Source: Escherichia coli | Lineage (GTDB): Bacteria > Pseudomonadota > Gammaproteobacteria > Enterobacterales > Enterobacteriaceae | Strand: one strand, 5' to 3' | Length of the DNA stretch: 64,000 nucleotides | Assembly (NCBI RefSeq): GCF_003790525.1 | Contig: NZ_CP033635.1 | Shown here: in pieces, positions 7,542 to 61,105 of the stretch | How the letters are laid out: every line of letters begins with the position of its first letter | Numbering within the stretch: the first letter of the stretch is position 1 | Position numbers and translations under genes: made by a program | Notes under the pieces: model-generated | The model's input: only the letters and a program-made list of their open reading frames with translations | What the model was told of the DNA's origin: nothing | The model's database searches: none

Positions 7542-8951
7542 ATGCAACGAGGGATAGTCTGGGTAGTCGATGACGATAGTTCCATCCGTTGGGTGCTTGA
7601 ACGTGCGCTCGCTGGAGCGGGTTTAACCTGTACGACATTTGAGAACGGCGCGGAAGTACTGGAGGCGCTGGCGAGCAAAACGCCGGATGTGCTGCTTTCA
7701 GATATCCGTATGCCGGGAATGGACGGGCTGGCGCTGCTCAAGCAGATTAAACAGCGCCATCCGATGCTTCCGGTCATCATTATGACCGCACATTCCGATC
7801 TGGATGCTGCCGTCAGCGCCTATCAACAAGGGGCGTTTGATTATCTGCCCAAACCGTTTGATATCGACGAAGCCGTCGCGCTGGTTGAGCGCGCCATCAG
7901 TCATTACCAGGAACAGCAGCAGCCGCGTAATGTTCAGCTTAACGGCCCAACGACCGATATCATCGGCGAAGCGCCAGCCATGCAGGACGTGTTCCGTATT
8001 ATCGGTCGGCTTTCGCGTTCTTCTATTAGCGTGCTGATTAACGGCGAATCCGGCACCGGTAAAGAACTGGTCGCTCATGCCCTGCATCGCCACAGTCCGC
8101 GAGCCAAAGCGCCATTTATCGCGCTGAATATGGCTGCTATCCCGAAGGATTTGATCGAATCAGAACTGTTTGGTCACGAGAAAGGCGCATTTACCGGCGC
8201 GAATACCATTCGTCAGGGGCGTTTTGAACAGGCTGATGGCGGTACATTATTCCTCGATGAAATTGGCGATATGCCGCTGGATGTGCAGACGCGTTTGCTG
8301 CGCGTGCTGGCAGACGGTCAGTTTTATCGCGTTGGCGGCTATGCGCCGGTGAAAGTGGATGTGCGGATTATCGCTGCCACTCACCAGAATCTTGAACAGC
8401 GGGTGCAGGAAGGTAAGTTCCGTGAGGATCTGTTCCACCGCCTGAACGTTATCCGCGTTCATCTGCCGCCATTGCGTGAGCGTCGGGAAGATATTCCCCG
8501 TCTGGCACGCCATTTTTTACAGGTTGCCGCGCGCGAACTGGGCGTAGAAGCGAAGTTGCTGCATCCGGAAACCGAAGCCGCGCTGACGCGCCTGGCGTGG
8601 CCAGGCAACGTGCGCCAGCTGGAAAACACCTGTCGCTGGCTAACGGTGATGGCCGCCGGGCAGGAAGTGTTGATTCAGGATTTGCCCGGTGAACTGTTTG
8701 AATCAACGGTTGCGGAGAGTACTTCGCAAATGCAACCGGACAGTTGGGCGACACTTTTAGCGCAGTGGGCAGACAGAGCGCTGCGTTCCGGTCATCAAAA
8801 CCTGCTTTCCGAAGCGCAGCCTGAGCTGGAGCGGACGTTACTGACGACCGCGTTGCGACATACGCAGGGGCATAAACAGGAAGCGGCGCGGCTACTCGGC
8901 TGGGGCCGCAACACCCTGACGCGTAAGTTAAAAGAGCTAGGGATGGAGTGA
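7542..8951 (+). CDS. glnG: Sigma-54-dependent response regulator NtrC (NRI)
   Basis: Start taken at ATG 7542 ([14 protein letters not shown]); receiver domain, AAA+ GESGTGKE and GAFTGA motifs present. The track ORF starts further upstream at 7482, inside glnL. Confidence 0.95.
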
Positions 8952-11502: not shown

Positions 11503-11745
11503 GAAAAAAGGCGACAGATTACTCTGTCGCCTTTTTTCCTGACTCATAACCCTTAACGGGTCTTACAATCCTTGCAGGCCGCCAACACACCCTGTTTTTC
11601 CATTAGCCGGAACAATCCGTGTTGATTCCATTTCCGTTTAATTACGTCTCCGGACGTTTGTCTTCCTGACAATCCTCTGTCTTCGCCTCCTGGCGCTCCT
11701 GACCCTCATCCTGAGTCATTGTTCCTGTTAGCGTCCTCGCTCTAT
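11503..11745 (-). ncRNA. csrC: CsrC sRNA (CsrA-sequestering)
   Basis: Minus-strand sequence carries many GGA motifs (caggatgagggtcaggagcgccaggaggcgaagacagaggattgtcaggaaga...) and ends in the hairpin ggcgacagagtaatctgtcgcc plus a T-run; sits between yihI and engB. Ends approximate. Confidence 0.7.
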
Positions 11746-45196: not shown

Positions 45197-45234
45197 TATC
45201 CCACAATATGAGATGGAGTTTATATTGTGGGATA
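45197..45234. promoter_or_regulatory. Perfect 13-bp inverted repeat, candidate operator in the rmuC / IclR-operon intergenic region
   Basis: tatcccacaatat (45197-45209) and atattgtgggata (45222-45234) are exact reverse complements separated by 12 bp, about 60 bp upstream of the IclR-family gene start. Confidence 0.5.
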
Positions 45235-45294
45235 TATCACCTTTTCCCCACGTCATTATGTGGAACACTTCAGCAATATCATCAGGAGAAACGT

Positions 45295-51654: not shown

Positions 51655-51690
51655 AAAAGTGATGCAAATCACATAAATCACTCTTCATTC
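51655..51690. promoter_or_regulatory. CRP/CytR-type operator region of the udp promoter
   Basis: Minus-strand tgtgatttgcatcact resembles the CRP half-site consensus TGTGA-N6-TCACA; a second gtgat-containing repeat is adjacent. Confidence 0.5.
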
Positions 51691-51793: not shown

Positions 51794-52603
51794 ATGGCAA
51801 CAACACAACAATCTGGATTTGCACCTGCTGCATCGCCTCTCGCTTCGACCATCGTTCAGACTCCGGACGACGCGATTGTGGCGGGCTTCACCTCTATCCC
51901 TTCACAAGGGGATAACATGCCTGCTTACCATGCCAGACCAAGGCAAAGCGATGGCCCACTGCCAGTGGTCATTGTAGTGCAGGAAATTTTTGGCGTGCAT
52001 GAACATATCCGCGATATTTGTCGCCGTCTGGCGCTGGAGGGGTATCTGGCTATCGCACCTGAACTTTACTTCCGCGAAGGCGATCCGAATGATTTTGCCG
52101 ATATCCCTACGCTGCTTAGCGGTCTGGTAGCAAAAGTGCCTGACTCGCAGGTGCTGGCCGATCTCGATCATGTCGCCAGTTGGGCTTCCCGCAACGGCGG
52201 CGATGTTCATCGTTTAATGATCACCGGATTCTGCTGGGGTGGACGTATCACCTGGCTGTATGCCGCGCATAATCCACAACTGAAAGCAGCGGTGGCATGG
52301 TACGGCAAATTAACCGGCGATAAGACGCTGAATTCACCGAAACAACCTGTTGATATCGCAACCGATCTTAACGCGCCGGTTCTCGGCTTATATGGTGGTC
52401 AGGATAACAGCATTCCGCAAGAGAGTGTGGAAACGATGCGCCAGGCGCTGCGGGCAGCAAACGCGAAAGCAGAGATTATCGTGTACCCGGATGCAGGGCA
52501 TGCGTTCAACGCCGATTATCGTCCGAGCTATCATGCCGAGTCTGCGAAAGACGGCTGGCAGCGAATGTTGGAATGGTTTACACAGTATGGTGTTAAAAAG
52601 TAA
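51794..52603 (+). CDS. ysgA: Dienelactone-hydrolase-family protein
   Basis: Start taken at MATTQQSGFAPAASPLASTIVQT; alpha/beta hydrolase with CWGG nucleophile elbow. Confidence 0.85.
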   Translation: MATTQQSGFAPAASPLASTIVQTPDDAIVAGFTSIPSQGDNMPAYHARPRQSDGPLPVVIVVQEIFGVHEHIRDICRRLALEGYLAIAPELYFREGDPNDFADIPTLLSGLVAKVPDSQVLADLDHVASWASRNGGDVHRLMITGFCWGGRITWLYAAHNPQLKAAVAWYGKLTGDKTLNSPKQPVDIATDLNAPVLGLYGGQDNSIPQESVETMRQALRAANAKAEIIVYPDAGHAFNADYRPSYHAESAKDGWQRMLEWFTQYGVKK

Positions 52604-52669
52604 CGCCATAGTCGCTAAATCTGATGATTAAGCTCACACAATTTCAACGATTTTTTTAATCTCAAAACC

Positions 52670-52698
52670 ATACAGCATCAAAAAATTTGTTGCTGTAT
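52670..52698. promoter_or_regulatory. 8-bp perfect inverted repeat with A/T-rich 13-bp spacer, candidate regulator site upstream of the hydrolase operon
   Basis: atacagca-tcaaaaaatttgt-tgctgtat; a related copy gcaaaaatttcgttgctgt lies at 52747-52765. Confidence 0.45.
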
Positions 52699-52859
52699 GC
52701 CACTCTTTGACTCCCTTCACATTCGTCATCACACCACCTGCTGAATGCAAAAATTTCGTTGCTGTGCGGCAAACTTTTTTCCTGTTTTGTGCCGCTTTTC
52801 TCCTGAATACTCGTTCTCAGAACAACTGGATCGTTTAAACATCAGACAGGAGATTTACC

Positions 52860-53528
52860 ATGACGCAATCCATTTTTCAGGCTCAACCCTTTGAATTACC
52901 TTTTGATCCGCGCACAACTGCACTGGTCATGATCGACATGCAGCGTGACTTTGTCGAAGCAGGGGGCTTCGGTGAGGCACTGGGCAATGATGTTTCACTG
53001 GTACGCACGGCTATCGCACCATGTACAGAGGTGCTGGCAGCCGCACGTCAAAAAGGAATTATGGTTATTCATACTCGTGAAGGCCATCGTGCAGACTTAA
53101 GCGACTGCCCGCCAGCCAAACTGACGCGCGGCGGAAAAACCTTTATTGGTGAACCAGGACCGATGGGACGCATTCTGGTCAGAGGTGAAGCAGGTCATGA
53201 CATCATTCCTGAACTGTACCCGGTGGCAGGCGAACCGGTGATTGATAAGCCTGGCAAAGGCGCGTTTTATCAAACCGACTTACATCTGATTTTGCAAAAC
53301 CACGGTATCAAGACGCTGATAGTTTGTGGTGTTACAACCGAAGTTTGCGTAACCACCACCGTGCGCGAAGCAAATGATCGTGGCTATGAATGCATTATCC
53401 CGGAAGATTGTGTCGGCTCCTATTTCCCGGAATTCCAGAAATACGCCCTCGAGATGATCAAAGCACAAGGTGCCATTTTCGGTTGGGTTACTGATTCCAA
53501 AGCCATTATTGCAGGCCTGGAAGGCTAA
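52860..53528 (+). CDS. Isochorismatase-fold cysteine hydrolase (amidohydrolase; RutB/BiuH/CSHase-like)
   Basis: 222-aa ORF with aggag RBS; motifs ALVMIDMQRDF (Asp) and LIVCGVTTEVCV (catalytic Cys context) typical of this subfamily. Confidence 0.75.
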   Translation: MTQSIFQAQPFELPFDPRTTALVMIDMQRDFVEAGGFGEALGNDVSLVRTAIAPCTEVLAAARQKGIMVIHTREGHRADLSDCPPAKLTRGGKTFIGEPGPMGRILVRGEAGHDIIPELYPVAGEPVIDKPGKGAFYQTDLHLILQNHGIKTLIVCGVTTEVCVTTTVREANDRGYECIIPEDCVGSYFPEFQKYALEMIKAQGAIFGWVTDSKAIIAGLEG

Positions 53529-53533
53529 CACCG

Positions 53534-54394
53534 ATGGTACAGGTTACGCTTTGCGCATCGTCGTTGGGATATCTTTTCCCGCAGAATGAAACGCAAGATT
53601 TACGTCTACATAGCGCTTTTAAACATGCGGTAAATCTGTATTCAGACGCGGGAACATTCATCACTCTGTTGTGTGCGCAAACGTATCTGAATCTCCCTGA
53701 TGCAGCCAGAGTCTGGCTACCTGAATGTTGGGACTGGCGAAGAGAGATTGCCCATTCAGATCCCATTCAGTTAACCCCAGGCTTACTGCGGACACCTCGA
53801 TTTTGTGTGGCGCTCGAAAACGCAACGCTCTGGCAGTCGCCATTTGTGGGGGGAATGCTGACACTTGAGGCATTCCCTTTGGTTTTCCAGCACTACCCAA
53901 CGATGGCATCGCAACGGCTTTTATTTTGTCTGGAACATAACGTTCAAAGCACATTGCACCTGCCGGATAGTCTCACGCACCAGGGATTAGCGATTATGGA
54001 GCATCCAGATGCGCTGGAACGCCAGGTGCCACAACTGATCGGCTTTGGTAAAGGCTTAACGCCCGATGGAGATGACTATTTGTTGGGCTATCTGGCAGCA
54101 CTCTGGTTATGGCAACTCCCTGCACCACTTGCCGATCATCAATACCGGTTGCAGCAGGTAATTGATCAACATGCGCACAACACCACGGATATCAGTCGTC
54201 ATTATCTGGAGCGTGCGCTTCAGGGACATTTTTCAGAACCGATTTGCCAGTTACTCGCACAACTGGTTGGGAGTGCATCGGCAATGACAATCGCATCCTG
54301 TGCAGAACAGGTCATGCAATTTGGCGCAACGTCAGGAGTAGATTGCCTTGCAGGAATGCTGCATGGCTTTCGAACCCTGAACACCATAAATTGA
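53534..54394 (+). CDS. DUF2877-family protein (YahE/YlbF-like)
   Basis: 286-aa ORF starting 5 nt after the preceding stop; resembles YahE / AllH-type proteins that accompany FdrA-like genes (from memory). Confidence 0.6.
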   Translation: MVQVTLCASSLGYLFPQNETQDLRLHSAFKHAVNLYSDAGTFITLLCAQTYLNLPDAARVWLPECWDWRREIAHSDPIQLTPGLLRTPRFCVALENATLWQSPFVGGMLTLEAFPLVFQHYPTMASQRLLFCLEHNVQSTLHLPDSLTHQGLAIMEHPDALERQVPQLIGFGKGLTPDGDDYLLGYLAALWLWQLPAPLADHQYRLQQVIDQHAHNTTDISRHYLERALQGHFSEPICQLLAQLVGSASAMTIASCAEQVMQFGATSGVDCLAGMLHGFRTLNTIN

Positions 54395-54488
54395 TTTCAA
54401 CCTTTTCTCCCGTAGCCCGTTTATGGGGCTACACGGGGATGCTTTGCCCGAATTTTGCTATCGGGCGGAATGAAACAGGCGTAACAGC

Positions 54489-56048
54489 ATGAAAGTTAAA
54501 TATAAAGTTTTCAGTAATCTTTATCAGGACTCAGTTTCTCTGATGCAGATTTCCGCGCAAATCAGCAAGTTGCCCGGTATTCAACAGGCCTCGGTCGTCA
54601 TGGGAACACCCAATAATCTCGAGCAATTGAGCGATGCGGGTCTGGGTAACGAAATCAACGCCAGTCCCAATGATTTAGTGATTGCAGTCATGGGTGAAGA
54701 AGATATTTGCAATGAAGCACTGGTACTGGCCCAGCAACGTCTGACCAGCAAACCCGATGATGAAACGGATAGTGGCATTAAAACACCGGAAAAGGTCAGC
54801 CTGGAAATGGCACTGGAAGCCGAGCCCGAAGCCAACCTGGCACTCATTTCTGTACCGGGAGACTACGCCGCCGCCGAAGCAATTAAAGCGTTAAACCTCG
54901 GAATGAACGTGATGATGTTCAGCGATAACGTCAGTATCGTGCAGGAAAAATCCATCAAAACGCTTGCCCGAGAACGTCAGCGCATCGTAATGGGACCTGA
55001 CTGTGGAACCGCCATTGTTAACGGCATTCCGTTAGGCTTCGCTAATGTGGTGAAACGCGGAGCAATTGGTGTTATTGGCGCGTCAGGCACCGGGCTACAG
55101 GAAGTGACTTGCCGAATCGACCAGCTCGGAGCGGGTATTTCTCAGGCGTTGGGAACAGGCGGACATGATCTCAGTGAAGAGATTGGTGGAATATCGATGC
55201 TCTTCGCTTTAGATGCGCTGGCGCAAGACGATGAAACTCGCGTGATTGTGCTTATTTCAAAACCGCCTTCACCGATCGTTGCCCGGACTATTCTGGAGCG
55301 TGCCGAGGCTTGTGGAAAACCCGTGGTGGTGAATTTCCTCGGTGCGAATCCGCATGATCTGGCACGTCCCAATATCACCGCGGCCACCACACTTGCCAGC
55401 GCCGCAAATATCGCCGTGGCGTTACTGAATGATCAACCACTTCCGACTATCGAGACCGAAATTTCCTGCGACGATCTCACAATGTTACAAAACGCCTGCC
55501 AGCGCCTGCCAGCCCATCGCCAGGCGATACGCGGTGTTTTCGCCGGAGGAACCTTCTGCTACGAAGCGCAACTTATCTGCCAACAAAAGGGATTCAGCGC
55601 AGCCTCCAATACGCCAGTTGCGGGTAATCGTGCTCTGGCAAATATCTGGCAAAGCGAAGATCACACGTTGATCGATATGGGCGACGATGATTTCACCCGT
55701 GGCAAACCGCATCCAATGATCGACCCGACTCTGCGCAATCAACGTCTGCTCAACGAACTCAACGACTCACACACTGCCGTCGTGTTATTCGACCTGGTAC
55801 TTGGTTATGGCGCTTCCACGACGCCTGCCAGCGAATTACTGGACCAACTTTCACACATCGACATGAATAACGCACCGTTGCTGATTGCGCACGTTTGCGG
55901 AACGGAAGCTGATCCGCAAATACGCAGTCAGCAGATAAGCGCACTACAAAATGCAGGGGTCATCATCGCCAGCAGCAATGCACAGGCGGCGTTATGGGCC
56001 AGCACCGTTGCACAGACTCAGTTGCAGAAAAAGGGGCTAAACGCATGA
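54489..56048 (+). CDS. FdrA/YahF-like protein (succinyl-CoA-synthetase-alpha-like, CoA-binding fold)
   Basis: 519-aa ORF with Gly-rich nucleotide/CoA-binding-like segments (VIGASGTGLQEV, GTGGHD). Confidence 0.7.
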   Translation: MKVKYKVFSNLYQDSVSLMQISAQISKLPGIQQASVVMGTPNNLEQLSDAGLGNEINASPNDLVIAVMGEEDICNEALVLAQQRLTSKPDDETDSGIKTPEKVSLEMALEAEPEANLALISVPGDYAAAEAIKALNLGMNVMMFSDNVSIVQEKSIKTLARERQRIVMGPDCGTAIVNGIPLGFANVVKRGAIGVIGASGTGLQEVTCRIDQLGAGISQALGTGGHDLSEEIGGISMLFALDALAQDDETRVIVLISKPPSPIVARTILERAEACGKPVVVNFLGANPHDLARPNITAATTLASAANIAVALLNDQPLPTIETEISCDDLTMLQNACQRLPAHRQAIRGVFAGGTFCYEAQLICQQKGFSAASNTPVAGNRALANIWQSEDHTLIDMGDDDFTRGKPHPMIDPTLRNQRLLNELNDSHTAVVLFDLVLGYGASTTPASELLDQLSHIDMNNAPLLIAHVCGTEADPQIRSQQISALQNAGVIIASSNAQAALWASTVAQTQLQKKGLNA

Positions 56049-57469
56049 ATACCTTATTTAATCAGCCTTTGAAGGTTGTGAACGCGGGACTACACAGTTT
56101 TGCTGACAATATTCAACATGCCGGGGGAAGCGCAATTGCACTCAACTGGCAGCCACCAGCACAAGGCGATATTGACGCTGGATTGGATCTGGCATCGTTG
56201 CTACGTCATCCCCTGGTAGAAAATGCCAACCAAATCGCCATGACACGTTATCTCGAAGCACAGCCCGTGCTGGTGGATGTCATGCTCGCTAAAGAGGCCA
56301 TTCCAGAAATGGCTGAACAAAAACGTATTTTGCACTCTGGCCCGCCGATTGCCTGGGAAGAGATGTGTGGTCCGGTAAAAGGGGCGATTATTGGTGCCAT
56401 GCTGTACGAAGGTTGGGCCACCAGCCAGCAAGACGCTGAAAACCAAATAAACGCAGGCGAAATCGACCTTGCCCCTTGTCATCATTATCACGCGGTTGGC
56501 CCAATGGCAGGCATCATCAGCCCGTCGATGCCGTTATGGGTGGTAGAAAACAAAACCAACGGCCACCGTACTTTTAGCAATTTCAATGAAGGTCTGGGTA
56601 AGGTTCTCCGTTTTGGCGCCAATAACGATGAAGTTCTCAATCGTCTGGCCTGGATGCGCGATGAACTGGCGCCGGCAATGAAAGCAGCAATCGCACAACA
56701 CGGCGAGCTGGAACTCAAGCCATTAATGGCGCAGGCGCTGCATATGGGGGATGAAGTTCATAACCGCAATGCTGCCGCTACCGGTTTGCTGATTAAGCGC
56801 CTGCTCCCGGCATTGCTGGCCTGCTCTCTTCCACAGGAACATATCCAGCGCGTCGTGGCATTTATCACCGGTAACGATCACTTCTTCCTCAATCTTTCGA
56901 TGGCCGCCTGTAAAGCAATGATGGATGCCGCCGCCAATGTACCGTTCAGTTCAATGGTTACGGTGATGGCGCGTAACGGGGTGAATTTTGGTATTCGGCT
57001 TTCCGGTACTGGCGATCGCTGGTTCCAGGCTCCTGCCAATGCCGTTGAAGGTCTGTTCTTCCCCGGATTTGGCGTCGACGATGCCGCTGCTGACCTGGGT
57101 GATAGCGCAATTACTGAAACCGCAGGTGTGGGTGGCTTCGCGATGGCGTCGTCTCCGGCGATCGTCAAATTTGTGGGAGGCACCCCTGCCGATGCCACCA
57201 ATAACAGCCGTCGGATGCAAGCCGTCACCCTCGGCGGTAACCCCGCATTTACACTTCCAGCCCTCAATTTTGCCCCCACCGCAGCAGGGATTGATGCGCG
57301 TAAAGTGACCGATCGCGGCATTTTACCGGTCATCAATACGGGTATCGCCCACAAACAAGCGGGGGTCGGGCAAATTGGTGCCGGGATCACCACTGCGCCG
57401 ATGGCCTGTTTTGTCGCCGCTGTACGTGCACTGGCGGAGATCGTCGCAAAGGAGAACCATCATGGTTAA
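56045..57469 (+). CDS. DUF1116-family protein (YahG/YlbE-like)
   Basis: Start at ATG 56045 overlapping the FdrA-like stop (ATGA); aagggg RBS 8 nt upstream; 474 aa. Confidence 0.65.
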   Translation: MNTLFNQPLKVVNAGLHSFADNIQHAGGSAIALNWQPPAQGDIDAGLDLASLLRHPLVENANQIAMTRYLEAQPVLVDVMLAKEAIPEMAEQKRILHSGPPIAWEEMCGPVKGAIIGAMLYEGWATSQQDAENQINAGEIDLAPCHHYHAVGPMAGIISPSMPLWVVENKTNGHRTFSNFNEGLGKVLRFGANNDEVLNRLAWMRDELAPAMKAAIAQHGELELKPLMAQALHMGDEVHNRNAAATGLLIKRLLPALLACSLPQEHIQRVVAFITGNDHFFLNLSMAACKAMMDAAANVPFSSMVTVMARNGVNFGIRLSGTGDRWFQAPANAVEGLFFPGFGVDDAAADLGDSAITETAGVGGFAMASSPAIVKFVGGTPADATNNSRRMQAVTLGGNPAFTLPALNFAPTAAGIDARKVTDRGILPVINTGIAHKQAGVGQIGAGITTAPMACFVAAVRALAEIVAKENHHG

Positions 57470-58418
57470 GCCACTGGCTGTCGTCGCGGTTGGCGGCAAT
57501 GCGCTCATTCAGGACGAGCAACGCAATAGTATTCCCGATCAATATGTTGCAGTGATGGAAAGCGTGCAGCATATCGTTGATATGGTTGAAGCCGGATGGG
57601 ACCTGGTGCTAACCCACGGTAATGGCCCGCAGGTGGGCTTTATTCTGCGCCGCTCTGAACTCGCCAGTAACGAAGTTTCTCCGGTTCCACTTGATTACGC
57701 CGTGGGTGATACACAAGGTGCAATTGGCTACATGTTCCAGAAAGCACTGCATAACGAATTGGCTCGCCGTGGCATAAACAAACCGGTAATTGCCCTGGTG
57801 ACACAAACGCGAGTCAGCCCACATGACGATGCTTTCGCCAGCCCCAGTAAACCAATTGGCGCGTTTCTCGATGAAGCAACGGCCCAACAACGCCAACAAC
57901 AACTCGGCTGGACGCTGATGGAGGACGCCGGGCGTGGTTGGCGGCGTACAGTTCCCTCTCCTGCCCCACTGGAAGTTATTGAGCACGACACCATCGCTCA
58001 CCTGGTGCGCCAGGGATATCTGGTTATTGCCTGCGGCGGCGGCGGTATTCCGGTGGTGCGAGACGGACAACAACTGAAAGGTGTAGAAGCCGTGATCGAT
58101 AAAGATCTGGCCTCCGCGCTGCTCGCCAGTCAGTTAGGCGCAGATCTGCTGGTGATCCCCACCGGTGTAGAAAAAGTGGCGATTAACTTTGGTACACCAC
58201 AACAACAGTGGCTCGACGCTATCAGCGTTGCCGAAGCGCAAACGCTGTTGCGGGAAGGTCAGTTTGGTGTCGGCAGTATGCAACCCAAAGTGGAAGCCAT
58301 TGTTGATTTCATCAATGCCAGCCAGCAACAAGGCAAACAGGCCAGCGGCCTGATTACTTCACCGCAAACCATAAAAGCAGCCCTGGCGCATCAGAGCGGT
58401 ACATGGATAACCCTTTAA
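57462..58418 (+). CDS. Carbamate kinase
   Basis: Start at ATG 57462 (MVKPLAVVAVGGNALIQ...), aggag RBS; amino-acid-kinase-fold motifs (VLTHGNGPQVG, IACGGGGIPVV); 318 aa. Confidence 0.8.
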   Translation: MVKPLAVVAVGGNALIQDEQRNSIPDQYVAVMESVQHIVDMVEAGWDLVLTHGNGPQVGFILRRSELASNEVSPVPLDYAVGDTQGAIGYMFQKALHNELARRGINKPVIALVTQTRVSPHDDAFASPSKPIGAFLDEATAQQRQQQLGWTLMEDAGRGWRRTVPSPAPLEVIEHDTIAHLVRQGYLVIACGGGGIPVVRDGQQLKGVEAVIDKDLASALLASQLGADLLVIPTGVEKVAINFGTPQQQWLDAISVAEAQTLLREGQFGVGSMQPKVEAIVDFINASQQQGKQASGLITSPQTIKAALAHQSGTWITL

Positions 58419-58434
58419 TTCTCTGGAGAACACA

Positions 58435-58824
58435 ATGACTACAACGCTTTTAGCCGTTAACGGAACGCTGATGCGCGGCCTGGAACTCAACCCAAATATG
58501 CAAAAAGCGGGCGGTATTTTTGTCCGTGAAGACCGAACTGACGCCCATTACCGGTTGTGGAGTATTAATGATCGCCATCCGGGAATGATTCGCGTGAATG
58601 AAGGAGGAACACACGTCGACGTAGAAATTTGGCAATTACCGCTGGCCAGTTTTGCCGCTCTGTTAATGAGCGAACCCGCTGGGCTGGCAATTGGCAAAAT
58701 CAAACTTGCCGATGGTAGCGAAGTGCTGGGCGTACTGGCAGAAAACTGGCTGACCGAAGGCCAACGGGAAATTACAGAACTGGGTAGCTGGCGCAAATAC
58801 ACCGGGCATTTTCATACTGTGTAA
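58435..58824 (+). CDS. AIG2 / gamma-glutamylcyclotransferase-like small protein
   Basis: 129-aa ORF; N-terminal LLAVNGTLMRG resembles the GGCT/AIG2 fold; ggag RBS. Confidence 0.55.
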   Translation: MTTTLLAVNGTLMRGLELNPNMQKAGGIFVREDRTDAHYRLWSINDRHPGMIRVNEGGTHVDVEIWQLPLASFAALLMSEPAGLAIGKIKLADGSEVLGVLAENWLTEGQREITELGSWRKYTGHFHTV

Positions 58825-58849
58825 CGCGCATTTATAAAGGGAACATACT

Positions 58850-60073
58850 ATGCGTAAAAAAGAAGAGAATCTGAATACGGCATCAGGATTGCGTATTGCC
58901 ATGATTTTGCTGGGTATTGCCGTCACACCTGTGCTGTTGTCATCCTCAAGCCTCGGCAATCAACTTTCCAGCGGCAGTTTAATTAGCGTCGTATTGTTAG
59001 GCGGCGTCATTCTGACCTTACTTTCAGCCATCACCATTAGCGTGGGAGAAAAAGCCCGCCTACCAACGTATGGCATTGTGAAATATTCGTTTGGCGAAAA
59101 AGGGGCCATCGCCATTAACATTTTGATGGCGATAAGTCTGTTCGGCTGGATTGCCGTTACCGCCAATATGTTTGGTCATTCGGTACATGACTTACTGGCT
59201 CAACATGGACTGGAAGTTCCACTGGCACTGTTAGTGGCGGCTGGCTGTGTCATTTTTGTCGCCTCTACGGCATTTGGCTTTGCCGTTCTGGGAAAAATTG
59301 CCCAGGTTGCCGTGCCGGTTATCGCGCTGGTGCTGTGTTACATCCTCTATGTGGCAACCCATACCGAAGTGGCAGTACCAGCGGCGATTGTGGAGATGAA
59401 TACAGGTGTCGCCGTTTCCACCGTTGTTGGCACCATTATTGTGCTGGTTGCCACACTGCCTGATTTCGGTAGTTTTGTGCATAACCGCAAACATGCGCTG
59501 ATTGCCGCAGGCGTGACGTTTCTGGTTGCCTACCCTCTGCTCTACTGGGCGGGTGCAACGCCGAGCGCCATTAGTGGTCAGGGATCTTTACTGGGTGCGA
59601 TGGCGGTATTCGGTGCGGTTCTGCCTGCGGCGCTGTTGTTGATTTTCGCCTGCGTCACCGGTAACGCGGGCAATATGTTCCAGGGCACGCTGGTGGTTTC
59701 CACACTGCTTACCCGCTTTCCCAAATGGCAGATTACCGTGGCGCTGGGTATCCTTTCCGCCATCGTAGGCAGTATGGATATTATGGCGTGGTTTATTCCG
59801 TTTCTGCTGTTCCTGGGTATCGCCACGCCACCCGTTGCCGGAATTTATATCGCTGACTTTTTCTTTTATCGCCGTAATGGCTATCAAGAGTCAGTGTTAG
59901 CCCAGGAGTCACAGATTAAAGTGCTGACATTCGCAGCATGGATCATAGGCGCAGCGGTTGGCTTTATGACCGTAAAAGGCTTATTCACCCTGACGACGAT
60001 CCCTTCGGTAGACTCGATTCTGGTGGCATGTATCGCTTATGCGATTCTCAGTCGGGCAAGTCAACACCGCTAA
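58850..60073 (+). CDS. NCS1-family nucleobase:cation symporter (cytosine/hydantoin/allantoin permease-like)
   Basis: 407-aa ORF with about 12 hydrophobic segments; resembles CodB-type permeases. Confidence 0.7.
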   Translation: MRKKEENLNTASGLRIAMILLGIAVTPVLLSSSSLGNQLSSGSLISVVLLGGVILTLLSAITISVGEKARLPTYGIVKYSFGEKGAIAINILMAISLFGWIAVTANMFGHSVHDLLAQHGLEVPLALLVAAGCVIFVASTAFGFAVLGKIAQVAVPVIALVLCYILYVATHTEVAVPAAIVEMNTGVAVSTVVGTIIVLVATLPDFGSFVHNRKHALIAAGVTFLVAYPLLYWAGATPSAISGQGSLLGAMAVFGAVLPAALLLIFACVTGNAGNMFQGTLVVSTLLTRFPKWQITVALGILSAIVGSMDIMAWFIPFLLFLGIATPPVAGIYIADFFFYRRNGYQESVLAQESQIKVLTFAAWIIGAAVGFMTVKGLFTLTTIPSVDSILVACIAYAILSRASQHR

Positions 60074-60150
60074 TTCCTGGGTATACTCAGGCAATGATTA
60101 CGGCTGAATCTGGAGAGATTCAGCCACTTTACCACTGACCAGGAAGCCTT

Positions 60151-61047
60151 ATGTTCATCTCAGACGAAACGCTTCGTGTTATTCATCTGGTCGCCAGACA
60201 CCAGAGCATTACCACCGCAGCCGAGCAGTTAAATAAAGTCCCTTCCGCCATCAGTTACACCATCAAGAAAGCGGAAGAGAGCCTGGGCGTTGAACTGTTC
60301 ATTCGTAAGGGACGCTATATTGAATTATCGCCAGCGGGAAGTTACTTCATCGAACATAGCAAAACTATTCTTGGCGACCTGGAAGCATTAAAGCGCAACA
60401 CAGTGCTGATTCACGATGGTATTGAGCGTGAACTGACAATTGCGGTAAACAATATTATTCCTGGTGATTTGCTGGTGGCATTTATTCGAGATTTTGAACG
60501 GCAATTCACATCAACAACACTGACGGTAGATCTTGAGGTATACAACGGCTGCTGGGATGCGCTGTACAGTAAGCGTGCCGATCTGGTCTACGGTGCTCCT
60601 CATGCAGTGCCAAGCAGTGAAGGCATCATTAGCGAACCGGTCGGACAAATGGAATGGGATTTTGTCGTCAGCCCACTCCACCCACTGGCAGCGAAGCGGC
60701 ATCCATTAGAAAACAGTGAATTGCGTCATTATCCAGCGGTTTGTATCCGCGATACCTCCGTTAACTTCCCCCCGATGCAAGCCTGGTTGTTGGAAGGACA
60801 AAAACCCATTTTTGTTCCTGACTTCGCTACGGCAATCGCCTTAATAGAACAAAACGTCGGTATTGGTTATATTCCACATCATCTGGCATTGCCGTTATTG
60901 AACAGCGGTAAATTGCTTAAAAAGCCAATGCGCGAACATAAACACGCCACCAAGTTATTTCTTGCCGCTCGTTCCGATGGTATGGGCAAAGCCTGTCAGT
61001 GGTGCATAGAATATTTAAGAAATCCGCAATTAATTTTCTGTTCCTGA
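60151..61047 (+). CDS. LysR-family transcriptional regulator
   Basis: 298-aa ORF with N-terminal LysR HTH (LVARHQSITTAAEQLNKVPSAISYTIKKAEESLGVELFIR) and substrate-binding domain. Confidence 0.8.
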   Translation: MFISDETLRVIHLVARHQSITTAAEQLNKVPSAISYTIKKAEESLGVELFIRKGRYIELSPAGSYFIEHSKTILGDLEALKRNTVLIHDGIERELTIAVNNIIPGDLLVAFIRDFERQFTSTTLTVDLEVYNGCWDALYSKRADLVYGAPHAVPSSEGIISEPVGQMEWDFVVSPLHPLAAKRHPLENSELRHYPAVCIRDTSVNFPPMQAWLLEGQKPIFVPDFATAIALIEQNVGIGYIPHHLALPLLNSGKLLKKPMREHKHATKLFLAARSDGMGKACQWCIEYLRNPQLIFCS

Positions 61048-61079: not shown

Positions 61080-61105
61080 ATGGCTTCCGGTGTTGGAAGC
61101 CATTA
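61080..61105. terminator. Bidirectional terminator between the LysR gene and metE
   Basis: Hairpin aatggcttccggtgttggaagccatt. Confidence 0.6.

What the first reader, a model, noticed from the sequence alone, without database searches (positions are those of the whole stretch)
52670..52765. Palindrome plus related repeat upstream of the hydrolase operon; LysR regulator encoded at the operon 3' end
atacagca-N13-tgctgtat (52670-52698) is a perfect 8-bp inverted repeat around an A/T-rich spacer, and a similar motif gcaaaaatttcgttgctgt recurs at 52747-52765, both inside the 256-bp leader before the cysteine-hydrolase gene. This looks like a LysR-type regulator site. Unusually, the only regulator in the block is a LysR gene at the distal end in the same orientation rather than divergent.
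Basis: seen in the sequence. Interest (0 to 1): 0.4.

Follow-up and report, generated by a model that had tools for sequence, protein, structure and literature searches.

The report
LysR operator pair before hydrolase operon
The palindrome and its nearby repeat are most likely the two binding sites of the island's own LysR-type regulator in a CRP-assisted promoter of an uncharacterised nitrogen-compound breakdown operon; this is a well-supported but ordinary kind of bacterial gene switch.

Summary
ATACAGCA-N13-TGCTGTAT (52670-52698) is the outer part of a 31-bp near-palindrome (arms 52669-82/52686-99, 13 of 14 pairs), and a related copy lies 69 bp downstream. The window is the E. coli ysgA-metE accessory island, present in 1499 of 5426 genomes.

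Leaders of orthologous operons in about 50 other genera carry the same two boxes, with consensus GCATCAAAAATTTTGATGC. A matrix built only from non-E. coli sites ranks 52675-52693 (26.0 bits) and 52744-52762 (17.7 bits) first and second in the 64-kb window; the next hit scores 11.6. Boxes occur where an ortholog of the island's LysR gene is linked (41 of 48 loci) and never where it is absent (0 of 29). The regulator's closest named relative is PunR, whose validated site shares the TCAA-N5-TTG core.

Relative to a conserved -10 (AATACT, 52806-52811), the proximal box sits near -66, followed by an ABS-like block. A conserved CRP-like box (52706-52721) lies between the two boxes, and the distal box sits near -135. 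The regulator gene is not divergent in most genera, and it appears to have its own promoter.

This is a new member of a known kind. Nothing has been shown experimentally.

The parts
52669..52699 (.). Distal LysR-type box ('site 1'), a 31-bp near-palindrome. The 19-bp core GCATCAAAAAATTTGTTGC is 52675-52693, centre 52684, about -135 from the predicted start.
   Evidence: 14-nt arms, 93% complementary; 26.0 bits, the best hit in 64 kb with a matrix built from non-E. coli sites, above the maximum of 200 simulated 64-kb sequences (23.2). Conserved in alignment A2.
52744..52762 (.). Proximal LysR-type box ('site 2'), AATGCAAAAATTTCGTTGC, centre 52753, about -66. Candidate recognition site (RBS).
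   Evidence: 17.7 bits, second best in the window. Columns CAAA..TTCG..GC are nearly invariant in 21 Enterobacterales leaders. In Vibrio-type leaders the proximal box lies a similar distance upstream of a -10-like hexamer (my count by hand on the sequences printed).
52770..52785 (+). Conserved block CAAACTTTTTTCCTGT next to the proximal box, covering about -49 to -34. Candidate activation site (ABS) that overlaps a missing -35.
   Evidence: AAA, TTT and CTGT columns invariant or nearly so. It lies about 22-24 bp from the proximal box centre. Role inferred from LysR-family architecture.
52706..52721 (.). CRP-like box TTTGACTCCCTTCACA (9 of 10 core positions), centre 52713.5, about -105.5, 29.5 bp from the distal box centre.
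   Evidence: one of only 3 hits with at most 1 mismatch in 64 kb; present at the same 29.5-30.5 bp distance from a LysR box in most Enterobacterales leaders (17 of 19) and in five Vibrio-type leaders. I read further close matches (TGTGAGGCTAATCACA in Thorsellia, TGTGATTTCGTTCACA in Avibacterium) off the printed sequences.
52644..52662 (.). Weak third LysR-like box ('site 0'), TCAACGATTTTTTTAATCT, in inverted orientation to site 2.
   Evidence: 81-85% complementary to sites 1 and 2; only 6.4 bits in E. coli. The same position scores 14.2-14.5 bits in Serratia oryzae and Serratia Ag1.
52623..52638 (.). Upstream conserved CTCACA box (GATGATTAAGCTCACA, 8 of 10 to the CRP core). Role unclear.
   Evidence: CACA invariant in all 21 leaders, but the left half is not conserved.
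52806..52811 (+). Predicted sigma-70 -10 hexamer AATACT (TATACT in most genera). There is no recognisable -35. Predicted start near A52819 in a conserved CAG.
   Evidence: ATACT invariant or nearly so; no full consensus promoter found on the + strand, as expected for an activator-dependent promoter. The start site is not mapped.
52860..60073 (+). Regulated operon of seven genes: BiuH/RutB-like cysteine hydrolase, AllH-like (DUF2877), FdrA/AllF-like, AllG-like (DUF1116), carbamate kinase, allophanate-hydrolase C-domain protein, NCS1 permease.
   Evidence: Gene order is conserved in about 50 loci.
60151..61047 (+). LysR-type regulator of the PunR/AllS subfamily, the proposed binder of the boxes.
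   Evidence: PF00126 and PF03466. (PunR model 286.7 bits, AllS 214.3, both below cut-off). (35% identity to K-12 PunR). (recognition helix KVPSAISYT conserved among orthologs and PunR).
60082..60125 (+). Candidate lysR promoter -10 (TATACT, 60082-60087) followed by hairpin GGCTGAATC/GATTCAGCC (60102-60125) in the permease-lysR gap.
   Evidence: TATAAT is conserved in Citrobacter, Buttiauxella and Serratia. A hairpin is present in each genus with a different sequence, and in Rahnella it is followed by a T-run.

Best explanation
The two motifs are operator boxes for the LysR-type regulator encoded at 60151-61047. Together with a cAMP-CRP site they form a compound, activator-dependent sigma-70 promoter for the seven-gene catabolic operon.

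Inferred mechanism:
1. The regulator is made from its own weak promoter in the permease-lysR gap.
2. It binds as a tetramer to the proximal box (about -66, the recognition site) and to the adjacent conserved block (about -49 to -34, the activation site). That block replaces a missing -35.
3. A second dimer or tetramer occupies the near-consensus distal box (about -135).
4. CRP binds 29.5 bp from the distal box. By bending the DNA it couples the distal module to the promoter in a helical-phase-dependent way.
5. An unknown inducer, by analogy a nitrogen-rich ureide or purine-type compound, shifts the regulator on the activation site so that RNA polymerase can start near 52819.

Shown here: the sequence, the conservation, the co-occurrence of boxes with the regulator gene, and the similarity to the PunR site. 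Inferred: binding, the start site, activation rather than repression, the role of the distal box, and the inducer.
For: - The locus is the ysgA-metE island, and the 256-bp leader is found only in island-bearing genomes.
- Leaders of orthologous operons from other genera show two boxes with consensus GCATCAAAAATTTTGATGC.
- A matrix from 62 non-E. coli sites ranks the two window motifs first and second in 64 kb: 26.0 and 17.7 bits, with the next hit at 11.6.
- In 48 loci with a linked LysR ortholog, 41 have a box of at least 15 bits within 350 bp upstream of the hydrolase gene. That is 58 hits in 16.8 kb, against 14 in 931 kb elsewhere in those loci. In 29 loci without the ortholog there are none. 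This holds within one genus, Caballeronia, which has loci with and without LysR.
- The regulator has the LysR helix-turn-helix and substrate-binding domains. Its best named match is PunR, then AllS.
- The PunR operator TsttwTCAAwAwwwTTGaaGGCA was validated by ChIP-exo, fluorescence polarisation and EMSA (PMC8376909). It shares the core, and it is the top hit of my matrix in the punR-punC locus at 17.2 bits.
- The recognition helix is conserved among the orthologs and PunR.
- AllS, the second-closest relative, activates the paralogous allFGHK operon from a site 144-203 bp upstream of allF (PMC12535856).
- The conserved -10 places the proximal box near -66.
- A CRP-like box lies 29.5-30.5 bp from a LysR box in most leaders. 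The spacing between boxes falls into classes of 69-71, 79-81 and 100-103 bp, which share one helical phase.
Against: - There are no experimental data: no binding assay, no mapped start site, no expression data.
- The matrix was trained on the upstream regions it is then scored on. The enrichment in LysR-positive loci is therefore partly circular. The fair controls are the LysR-negative loci, the rest of each locus, the E. coli window and the PunR site.
- The E. coli boxes each miss one end of a strict T-N11-A: site 1 is T-N11-T and site 2 is G-N11-T. Those two positions carry little information in the matrix (0.42 bits).
- A distal box at about -135 lies outside the usual 50-60 bp LysR footprint, so its role is a guess.
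- The helical-phase argument rests on only three independent spacing classes.
- The plasmid-borne copy keeps the regulator at 91% identity but has poor boxes, at most about 8 bits. The boxes may therefore be dispensable or re-specified there.
- The core-genome PunR could also bind these sites, because the core is the same.
Confidence: 0.8

Rival explanations
1. The palindrome is an RNA hairpin. It would act as a terminator or 3'-end stabiliser for ysgA, or as an insulator that stops read-through into the operon.
For: As RNA, 52669-52699 folds at -14.3 kcal/mol with z = -4.9 against shuffles. It lies 66 nt after the ysgA stop. The arms differ between genera while staying complementary.
Against: - No T-run follows the stem (sequence GCCACTCTTTGAC), and the terminator scan does not flag it.
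- The box is conserved where the upstream gene is not ysgA, including on plasmids.
- Conservation is of sequence in the A/T core (CAA...TTG), not merely of pairing.
- The second copy does not fold better than shuffles (z = -0.57), and neither does the plasmid copy (z = -0.16).
- A symmetric dimer site also makes both arms change together, so the covariation does not discriminate between the two readings.
Confidence: 0.05
2. The boxes are bound by another protein, not the island's regulator. Candidates are the core-genome PunR, or a global A/T-binding regulator such as Nac, ArgR, Fis or IHF.
For: The core TCAA-N5-TTG is the same as in the validated PunR site (PMC8376909). The sites are A/T-rich. 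The operon looks like nitrogen catabolism, where Nac or NtrC control would be plausible.
Against: - The boxes track the presence of the linked LysR ortholog, including within Caballeronia.
- The flanks differ from the PunR consensus: GCA-TCAA against TTw-TCAA.
- There is no sigma-54 promoter match with at most 2 mismatches in the leader.
- By eye I saw no ATA-N9-TAT (Nac-type) or ARG-box match conserved across genera in the sequences. This was not scanned with a tool.
Confidence: 0.1
3. Only the proximal box is functional. The distal palindrome would be a relic of an ancestral divergent lysR promoter (autoregulation site), left behind when lysR moved to the 3' end.
For: In Pseudovibrio, Crenobacter and Laribacter-type loci the regulator is divergent, and the box lies 161-231 bp upstream of the hydrolase gene, near lysR. 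The distal box lies outside a normal LysR footprint.
Against: - The distal box is the best match to the consensus in E. coli (26.0 bits). It is retained in nearly all Enterobacterales and in the Vibrio-type loci with a co-directional lysR.
- Its distance to the CRP-like box is fixed at 29.5-30.5 bp, and its distance to the proximal box changes in steps of about one helical turn. A decaying relic would not keep this.
Confidence: 0.1

Closest known systems
PunR (YdhB) and its operator in the punR-punC intergenic region of E. coli K-12
   Same: Same LysR subfamily: the best NCBIfam match is PunR at 286.7 bits, with 35% identity over 292 residues. The recognition helix is nearly identical, VPSAISYT against VPSAVSYT. 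The operator core TCAA-w5-TTG has an A/T centre, and my matrix finds the validated PunR site as the top hit. PunR acts as an activator upstream of its target promoter (PMC8376909).
   Different: It is not a PunR ortholog: the score is below the 345-bit cut-off. The target is a seven-gene catabolic operon, not a divergent MFS transporter. The regulator gene is not divergent. There are two boxes plus a CRP-like box instead of one 23-bp site. The flanking bases differ, and the effector is unknown (adenine for PunR).
AllS activation of the allD and allFGHK operons of the E. coli allantoin cluster
   Same: AllS is the second-best family match (214.3 bits). The regulated operon here contains paralogs of AllF, AllG, AllH and carbamate kinase AllK. 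The AllS site lies far upstream, -203 to -144 from the allF start codon, and allS is not adjacent to allF (PMC12535856).
   Different: The score is below the AllS cut-off of 372 bits. The AllS recognition helix differs (KTTATISYRIKL). My matrix finds no strong box in the allD-allF gap. The allF operon is co-regulated by ArcA, not by an evident CRP site. This operon adds a BiuH-like hydrolase, an AH_C protein and an NCS1 permease.
Classical LysR-type promoters with a recognition site near -65 and an activation site near -35 (for example CbnR, BenM, AtzR, OccR; from general knowledge of the family)
   Same: There is an interrupted dyad upstream of a promoter that has a good -10 and a poor -35. 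The proximal box lies near -66, with a second conserved block two helical turns downstream.
   Different: There is an extra near-consensus box about 69 bp further upstream, with a CRP-like box between the two. The regulator gene is not divergently transcribed, so the usual shared autoregulatory promoter is absent.

Membership tests
LysR-type transcriptional regulator (the protein at 60151-61047) | N-terminal winged helix-turn-helix (Pfam HTH_1) and C-terminal LysR substrate-binding domain, in a protein of about 300 residues | tested here: met
   PF00126 at 61 bits (residues 7-63) and PF03466 at 97.7 bits (residues 89-290). The protein has 298 residues.
LysR-type operator | Interrupted dyad of the T-N11-A type with an A/T-rich centre | tested here: met
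   the consensus of 96 sites is GCATCAAAAATTTTGATGC, with T4 and A16 twelve positions apart. The strongest positions are C5, A7, T13 and G15. The E. coli boxes each deviate at one end: site 1 is T-N11-T and site 2 is G-N11-T.
LysR-type operator | Recognition site centred near -65 and activation site near -35 relative to the transcription start | tested here: inconclusive
   The proximal box centre (52753) is 66 bp upstream of a start predicted from the conserved -10 at 52806-52811. The start site is not mapped.
LysR-type operator | Bound by the cognate regulator | not testable with these tools
   Only indirect evidence: co-occurrence with the regulator gene.
LysR-type operator | Regulator gene divergently transcribed from the target promoter (common, but not defining) | tested here: not met
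   lysR is 7.3 kb downstream and co-directional. It is divergent only in a few genera.
PunR (NCBIfam NF008294 equivalog) | Score at or above the curated cut-off of 345 bits | tested here: not met
   286.7 bits; 35% identity. It is a paralog in the same subfamily, not PunR.
AllS (NCBIfam NF007501 equivalog) | Score at or above the curated cut-off of 372 bits | tested here: not met
   214.3 bits.
cAMP-CRP binding site | TGTGA-N6-TCACA core | tested here: met
   TTTGACTCCCTTCACA matches 9 of 10 positions, one of 3 such hits in 64 kb. It is conserved at a fixed distance from a LysR box. Binding was not tested.
Intrinsic (Rho-independent) terminator | G+C-rich stem followed directly by a T-run | tested here: not met
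   One search does not flag 52669-52699. The stem is A/T-rich in its inner half, and it is followed by GCCACTCTTTGAC.
Known RNA families (riboswitch, leader) | Match to an Rfam covariance model at its gathering score | tested here: not met
   only one chance-level match (19.8 bits against a gathering score of 49) in 52400-53000.

The most novel reading that the evidence does not exclude
The leader would be a phase-locked nucleoprotein switch rather than a simple LysR promoter. Two LysR-bound boxes, one far upstream, would be joined through a CRP-bent segment. The CRP-to-box distance is fixed at about 30 bp, and the spacers change only by whole helical turns. The switch would control an uncharacterised ATP-yielding pathway (BiuH-like hydrolase, AllFGH-like transcarbamylase, carbamate kinase) for a biuret- or ureide-like nitrogen source. 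The plasmid-borne copy, with new complementary arms (ATAAACA/TGTTTAT) and an A33T change in the recognition helix, would be a re-specified regulator-operator pair.
Probability: 0.2. Interest if true: 0.5.

Novelty: new member of a known kind. Interest (0 to 1): 0.3.

Why it matters
The operon belongs to an accessory island carried by about a quarter of complete E. coli genomes, including B, B2/ExPEC and probiotic strains, and by plasmids. Its hydrolase is more than 80% identical across distant proteobacterial genera, yet its substrate is unknown. A defined operator, a candidate regulator and a CRP site give a direct experimental handle. A reporter fused to 52610-52860 could be screened with candidate inducers (biuret, triuret, allophanate, oxalurate, purine breakdown products) to find the substrate. 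The operator matrix can be used to list the regulon in other genera. As gene regulation it is a standard LysR/CRP design, and the interest lies mainly in what it controls.

Tried and rejected
- Terminator or hairpin reading: the RNA fold is stable in E. coli, but there is no T-run. The second copy and the plasmid copy do not fold better than shuffles, and the box is conserved where ysgA is absent.
- Sigma-54 promoter: no match with at most 2 mismatches in the leader.
- Known RNA family: none.
- Full consensus sigma-70 promoter on the + strand of the leader: none found. I read this as an activator-dependent promoter with a conserved -10 only.
- Box upstream of lysR (autoregulation): nothing above 8 bits in 60074-60150 or inside lysR.
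- Extra 21.7-bit hits downstream of lysR in the Rahnella-type loci: in the one locus I read (L024) the hit lies inside the coding sequence of a small secreted protein, so I treat it as a chance match.
- AllS-type site: my matrix finds no strong box in the K-12 allD-allF gap.
- Second promoter between the two boxes: TTGACT at 52708 has no usable or conserved -10 downstream (by eye).
- Literature: four full-text searches found gene-content descriptions of the island (PMC12928451) but nothing on its regulation.
- My Markov-chain simulation gave more high-scoring A/T palindromes than the real window (mean maximum 15.3 bits). I therefore rely on rank within the window and on the comparative controls, not on that null model.

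Full report
**Where this is**

The window matches E. coli chromosomes at 100% identity. In strain SMS-3-5 the annotated order is udp, ysgA, then eight co-directional genes, then the convergent metE. The eight genes are:
- cysteine hydrolase, 52860-53528
- DUF2877 protein, 53534-54394
- FdrA-like protein, 54489-56048
- DUF1116 protein, 56045-57469
- carbamate kinase, 57462-58418
- allophanate-hydrolase-related protein, 58435-58824
- 'cytosine permease', 58850-60073
- LysR-family regulator, 60151-61047

K-12 has ysgA next to metE, so this is an accessory island. The 256-bp leader (52604-52859) occurs in 1499 of 5426 complete E. coli genomes. A diverged copy (about 68% identical) occurs on about 120 plasmids that carry the same eight genes. 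A recent genome paper lists the island as 'GR 29 metE..ysgA' and discusses only its gene content (PMC12928451).

**The observation**

The repeat finder extends the palindrome to arms of 14 nt (52669-52682 and 52686-52699, 93% complementary, 3 nt between them). It reports the second motif as a 30-nt direct repeat 69 bp downstream, and a weaker third copy in inverted orientation at 52645-52660.

An 8-bp perfect inverted repeat with a short spacer is common: the window has 82. The 14-nt arms are not common: there are 4 such places in the window against 0.17 expected. Two of the other three are textbook terminators.

**Comparative evidence**

I fetched 80 loci encoding close relatives of the hydrolase and mapped the eight island proteins onto them. 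The operon is conserved from Enterobacterales to Vibrio, Photobacterium, Shewanella, Silvimonas, Burkholderiaceae and Dyella.

An ortholog of the LysR gene is nearly always linked, but its place varies:
- 3' end and co-directional in Enterobacterales and Burkholderiaceae;
- immediately 5' and co-directional in the Vibrio-type loci;
- divergent in Pseudovibrio, Crenobacter and Laribacter.

The upstream regions and an alignment of 21 Enterobacterales leaders show discrete conserved blocks in otherwise free-running sequence. An iterative search gave a 19-bp palindromic consensus, GCATCAAAAATTTTGATGC. Its most informative positions are C5, A7, T13 and G15.

I rebuilt the matrix from 62 sites that exclude E. 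coli and scanned the whole window. The two best hits are 52675-52693 (26.0 bits) and 52744-52762 (17.7 bits), and the third is 11.6 bits.

**Link to the regulator**

Among 48 loci with a linked LysR ortholog, 41 have at least one box of 15 bits or more within 350 bp upstream of the hydrolase gene. That is 58 hits in 16.8 kb, against 14 hits in the remaining 931 kb. Among 29 loci without the ortholog there is none. The contrast holds inside one genus, Caballeronia. Because the matrix was trained on these leaders, the positive side is partly circular. The negative loci, the rest of each locus and the E. coli window are fair controls.

An independent control comes from the literature. The regulator has both LysR domains, and its best named family is PunR, followed by AllS, both below their cut-offs. 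PunR's operator was defined by footprinting across species, ChIP-exo, fluorescence polarisation and EMSA as TsttwTCAAwAwwwTTGaaGGCA (PMC8376909). That is the same TCAA-N5-TTG core. My matrix picks the validated site as the top hit in the K-12 punR-punC locus at 17.2 bits. The recognition helix (KVPSAISYT) is conserved among the orthologs and PunR, but differs in AllS.

**Promoter anatomy**

The alignment shows an invariant -10 (ATACT). The hexamer AATACT is at 52806-52811 and is TATACT in most genera. A conserved CAG follows 7-8 nt later, which puts the likely start at A52819, and a Shine-Dalgarno sequence follows. No -35 is recognisable, and the consensus scan finds no full promoter on this strand, which fits an activator-dependent promoter.

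On this numbering the elements lie as follows:

| Element | Window coordinates | Approximate position |
|---|---|---|
| Conserved block CAAACTTTTTTCCTGT | 52770-52785 | -49 to -34 |
| Proximal box (centre) | 52753 | -66 |
| CRP-like box TTTGACTCCCTTCACA (centre 52713.5) | 52706-52721 | -105.5 |
| Distal box (centre) | 52684 | -135 |
| Weak third box (centre) | 52653 | -166 |

The CRP-like box is one of only three hits with at most one mismatch in the window. Another of the three lies in the udp-ysgA gap.

Across genera the CRP-like box keeps 29.5-30.5 bp to one LysR box. The distance between the two LysR boxes falls into classes of 69-71, 79-81 and 100-103 bp, which is the same helical phase. 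This suggests a phase-dependent complex. With three independent classes, the statistics are weak.

**The regulator gene**

The permease-lysR gap carries a conserved TATAAT-like hexamer (TATACT, 60082-60087). It is followed by a hairpin (60102-60125) that is present in every genus examined but with different sequences. In Rahnella the hairpin is followed by a T-run. I read this as a separate lysR promoter, partly insulated from the operon. That removes the bootstrapping problem of an activator that would otherwise be made only from the promoter it activates. No LysR box lies there, so classical autorepression is not evident.

**Rivals**

- A ysgA terminator or RNA hairpin fits the E. coli fold energy (-14.3 kcal/mol, z = -4.9). 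It does not fit the missing T-run, the conservation in loci without ysgA, or the lack of structure in the second copy and the plasmid copy.
- Binding by PunR or a global regulator cannot be excluded, but it does not explain the co-occurrence with the linked gene.
- A relic role for the distal box conflicts with its near-consensus sequence and its fixed geometry.
- There is no sigma-54 promoter and no Rfam family in the leader.

**Open points**

- The plasmid copy has proteins 91-98% identical but a leader only about 68% identical. Both of its boxes score at most about 8 bits. The distal arms remain complementary with a new sequence (ATAAACA-N12-TGTTTAT), and the recognition helix carries A33T and I38L. 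I could not decide whether this is decay or re-specification.
- The invariant CTCACA at 52633-52638 lacks a conserved CRP left half and is unexplained.

**Verdict**

I found no description of this operator in the library searched. It belongs to a well-known class, next to PunR and AllS, so it is a new member of a known kind. Interest is modest. The main value is as a tool to discover what the conserved, uncharacterised operon degrades.

Noticed in passing
window 60074-60150: The permease-lysR gap holds a conserved -10-like hexamer (TATACT 60082-60087; TATAAT in Citrobacter, Buttiauxella and Serratia). A hairpin follows (60102-60125) that is present in each genus with a different sequence, and Rahnella adds a T-run. 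lysR probably has its own promoter and is partly insulated from the operon.
   Followed up: partly
L002 11060-11160 and 18524-19411 (plasmid pGDE043-2; about 120 E. coli plasmids): The plasmid-borne copy of the operon has proteins 91-98% identical but a leader about 68% identical. Both LysR boxes are degenerate (at most about 8 bits). The distal arms stay complementary with a new sequence (ATAAACA-N12-TGTTTAT), and the regulator's recognition helix carries A33T and I38L. This is either decay or a re-specified regulator-operator pair.
   Followed up: partly
window 52860-60073: The operon's gene set is a BiuH-like cysteine hydrolase (280 bits, below the 370-bit BiuH cut-off), paralogs of oxamate carbamoyltransferase AllF/G/H, a carbamate kinase, a stand-alone allophanate-hydrolase C-domain protein and an NCS1 permease. 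This points to an uncharacterised, possibly ATP-yielding breakdown of a biuret- or ureide-like compound. The hydrolase is more than 80% identical from E. coli to Vibrio and Burkholderiaceae.
   Followed up: partly
window 52623-52638: A CTCACA box is invariant in 21 Enterobacterales leaders, upstream of the weak third LysR-like box. Its left half is not conserved, so a CRP assignment is weak. Its role is unknown.
   Followed up: partly
window 51658-51673: AGTGATGCAAATCACA is a near-consensus CRP-type site in the udp-ysgA intergenic region.
   Followed up: no
window 45198-45235: A long palindrome (ATCCCACAATAT ... ATATTGTGGGAT, 14-nt arms with 1 mismatch) lies in the gap between rmuC and an IclR-family regulator gene. 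That gene heads a dehydro-deoxygalactonate kinase/aldolase and tripartite tricarboxylate transporter cluster. It is a candidate operator.
   Followed up: no
window 61080-61103: A hairpin (ATGGCTTCC/GGAAGCCAT) lies between the convergent lysR and metE genes and is probably a shared terminator. Textbook bidirectional terminators also lie at about 2653-2686 and 11503-11538.
   Followed up: no
L060, L061, L072 about 8828-8848 (Crenobacter, Craterilacuibacter): Where lysR is divergent, a second LysR box (15.7-16.6 bits) lies just beyond the 3' end of lysR. It is upstream of an opposite-strand stretch that includes the fdrA-like and DUF1116 genes, so the same regulator may control two transcription units there.
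   Followed up: no
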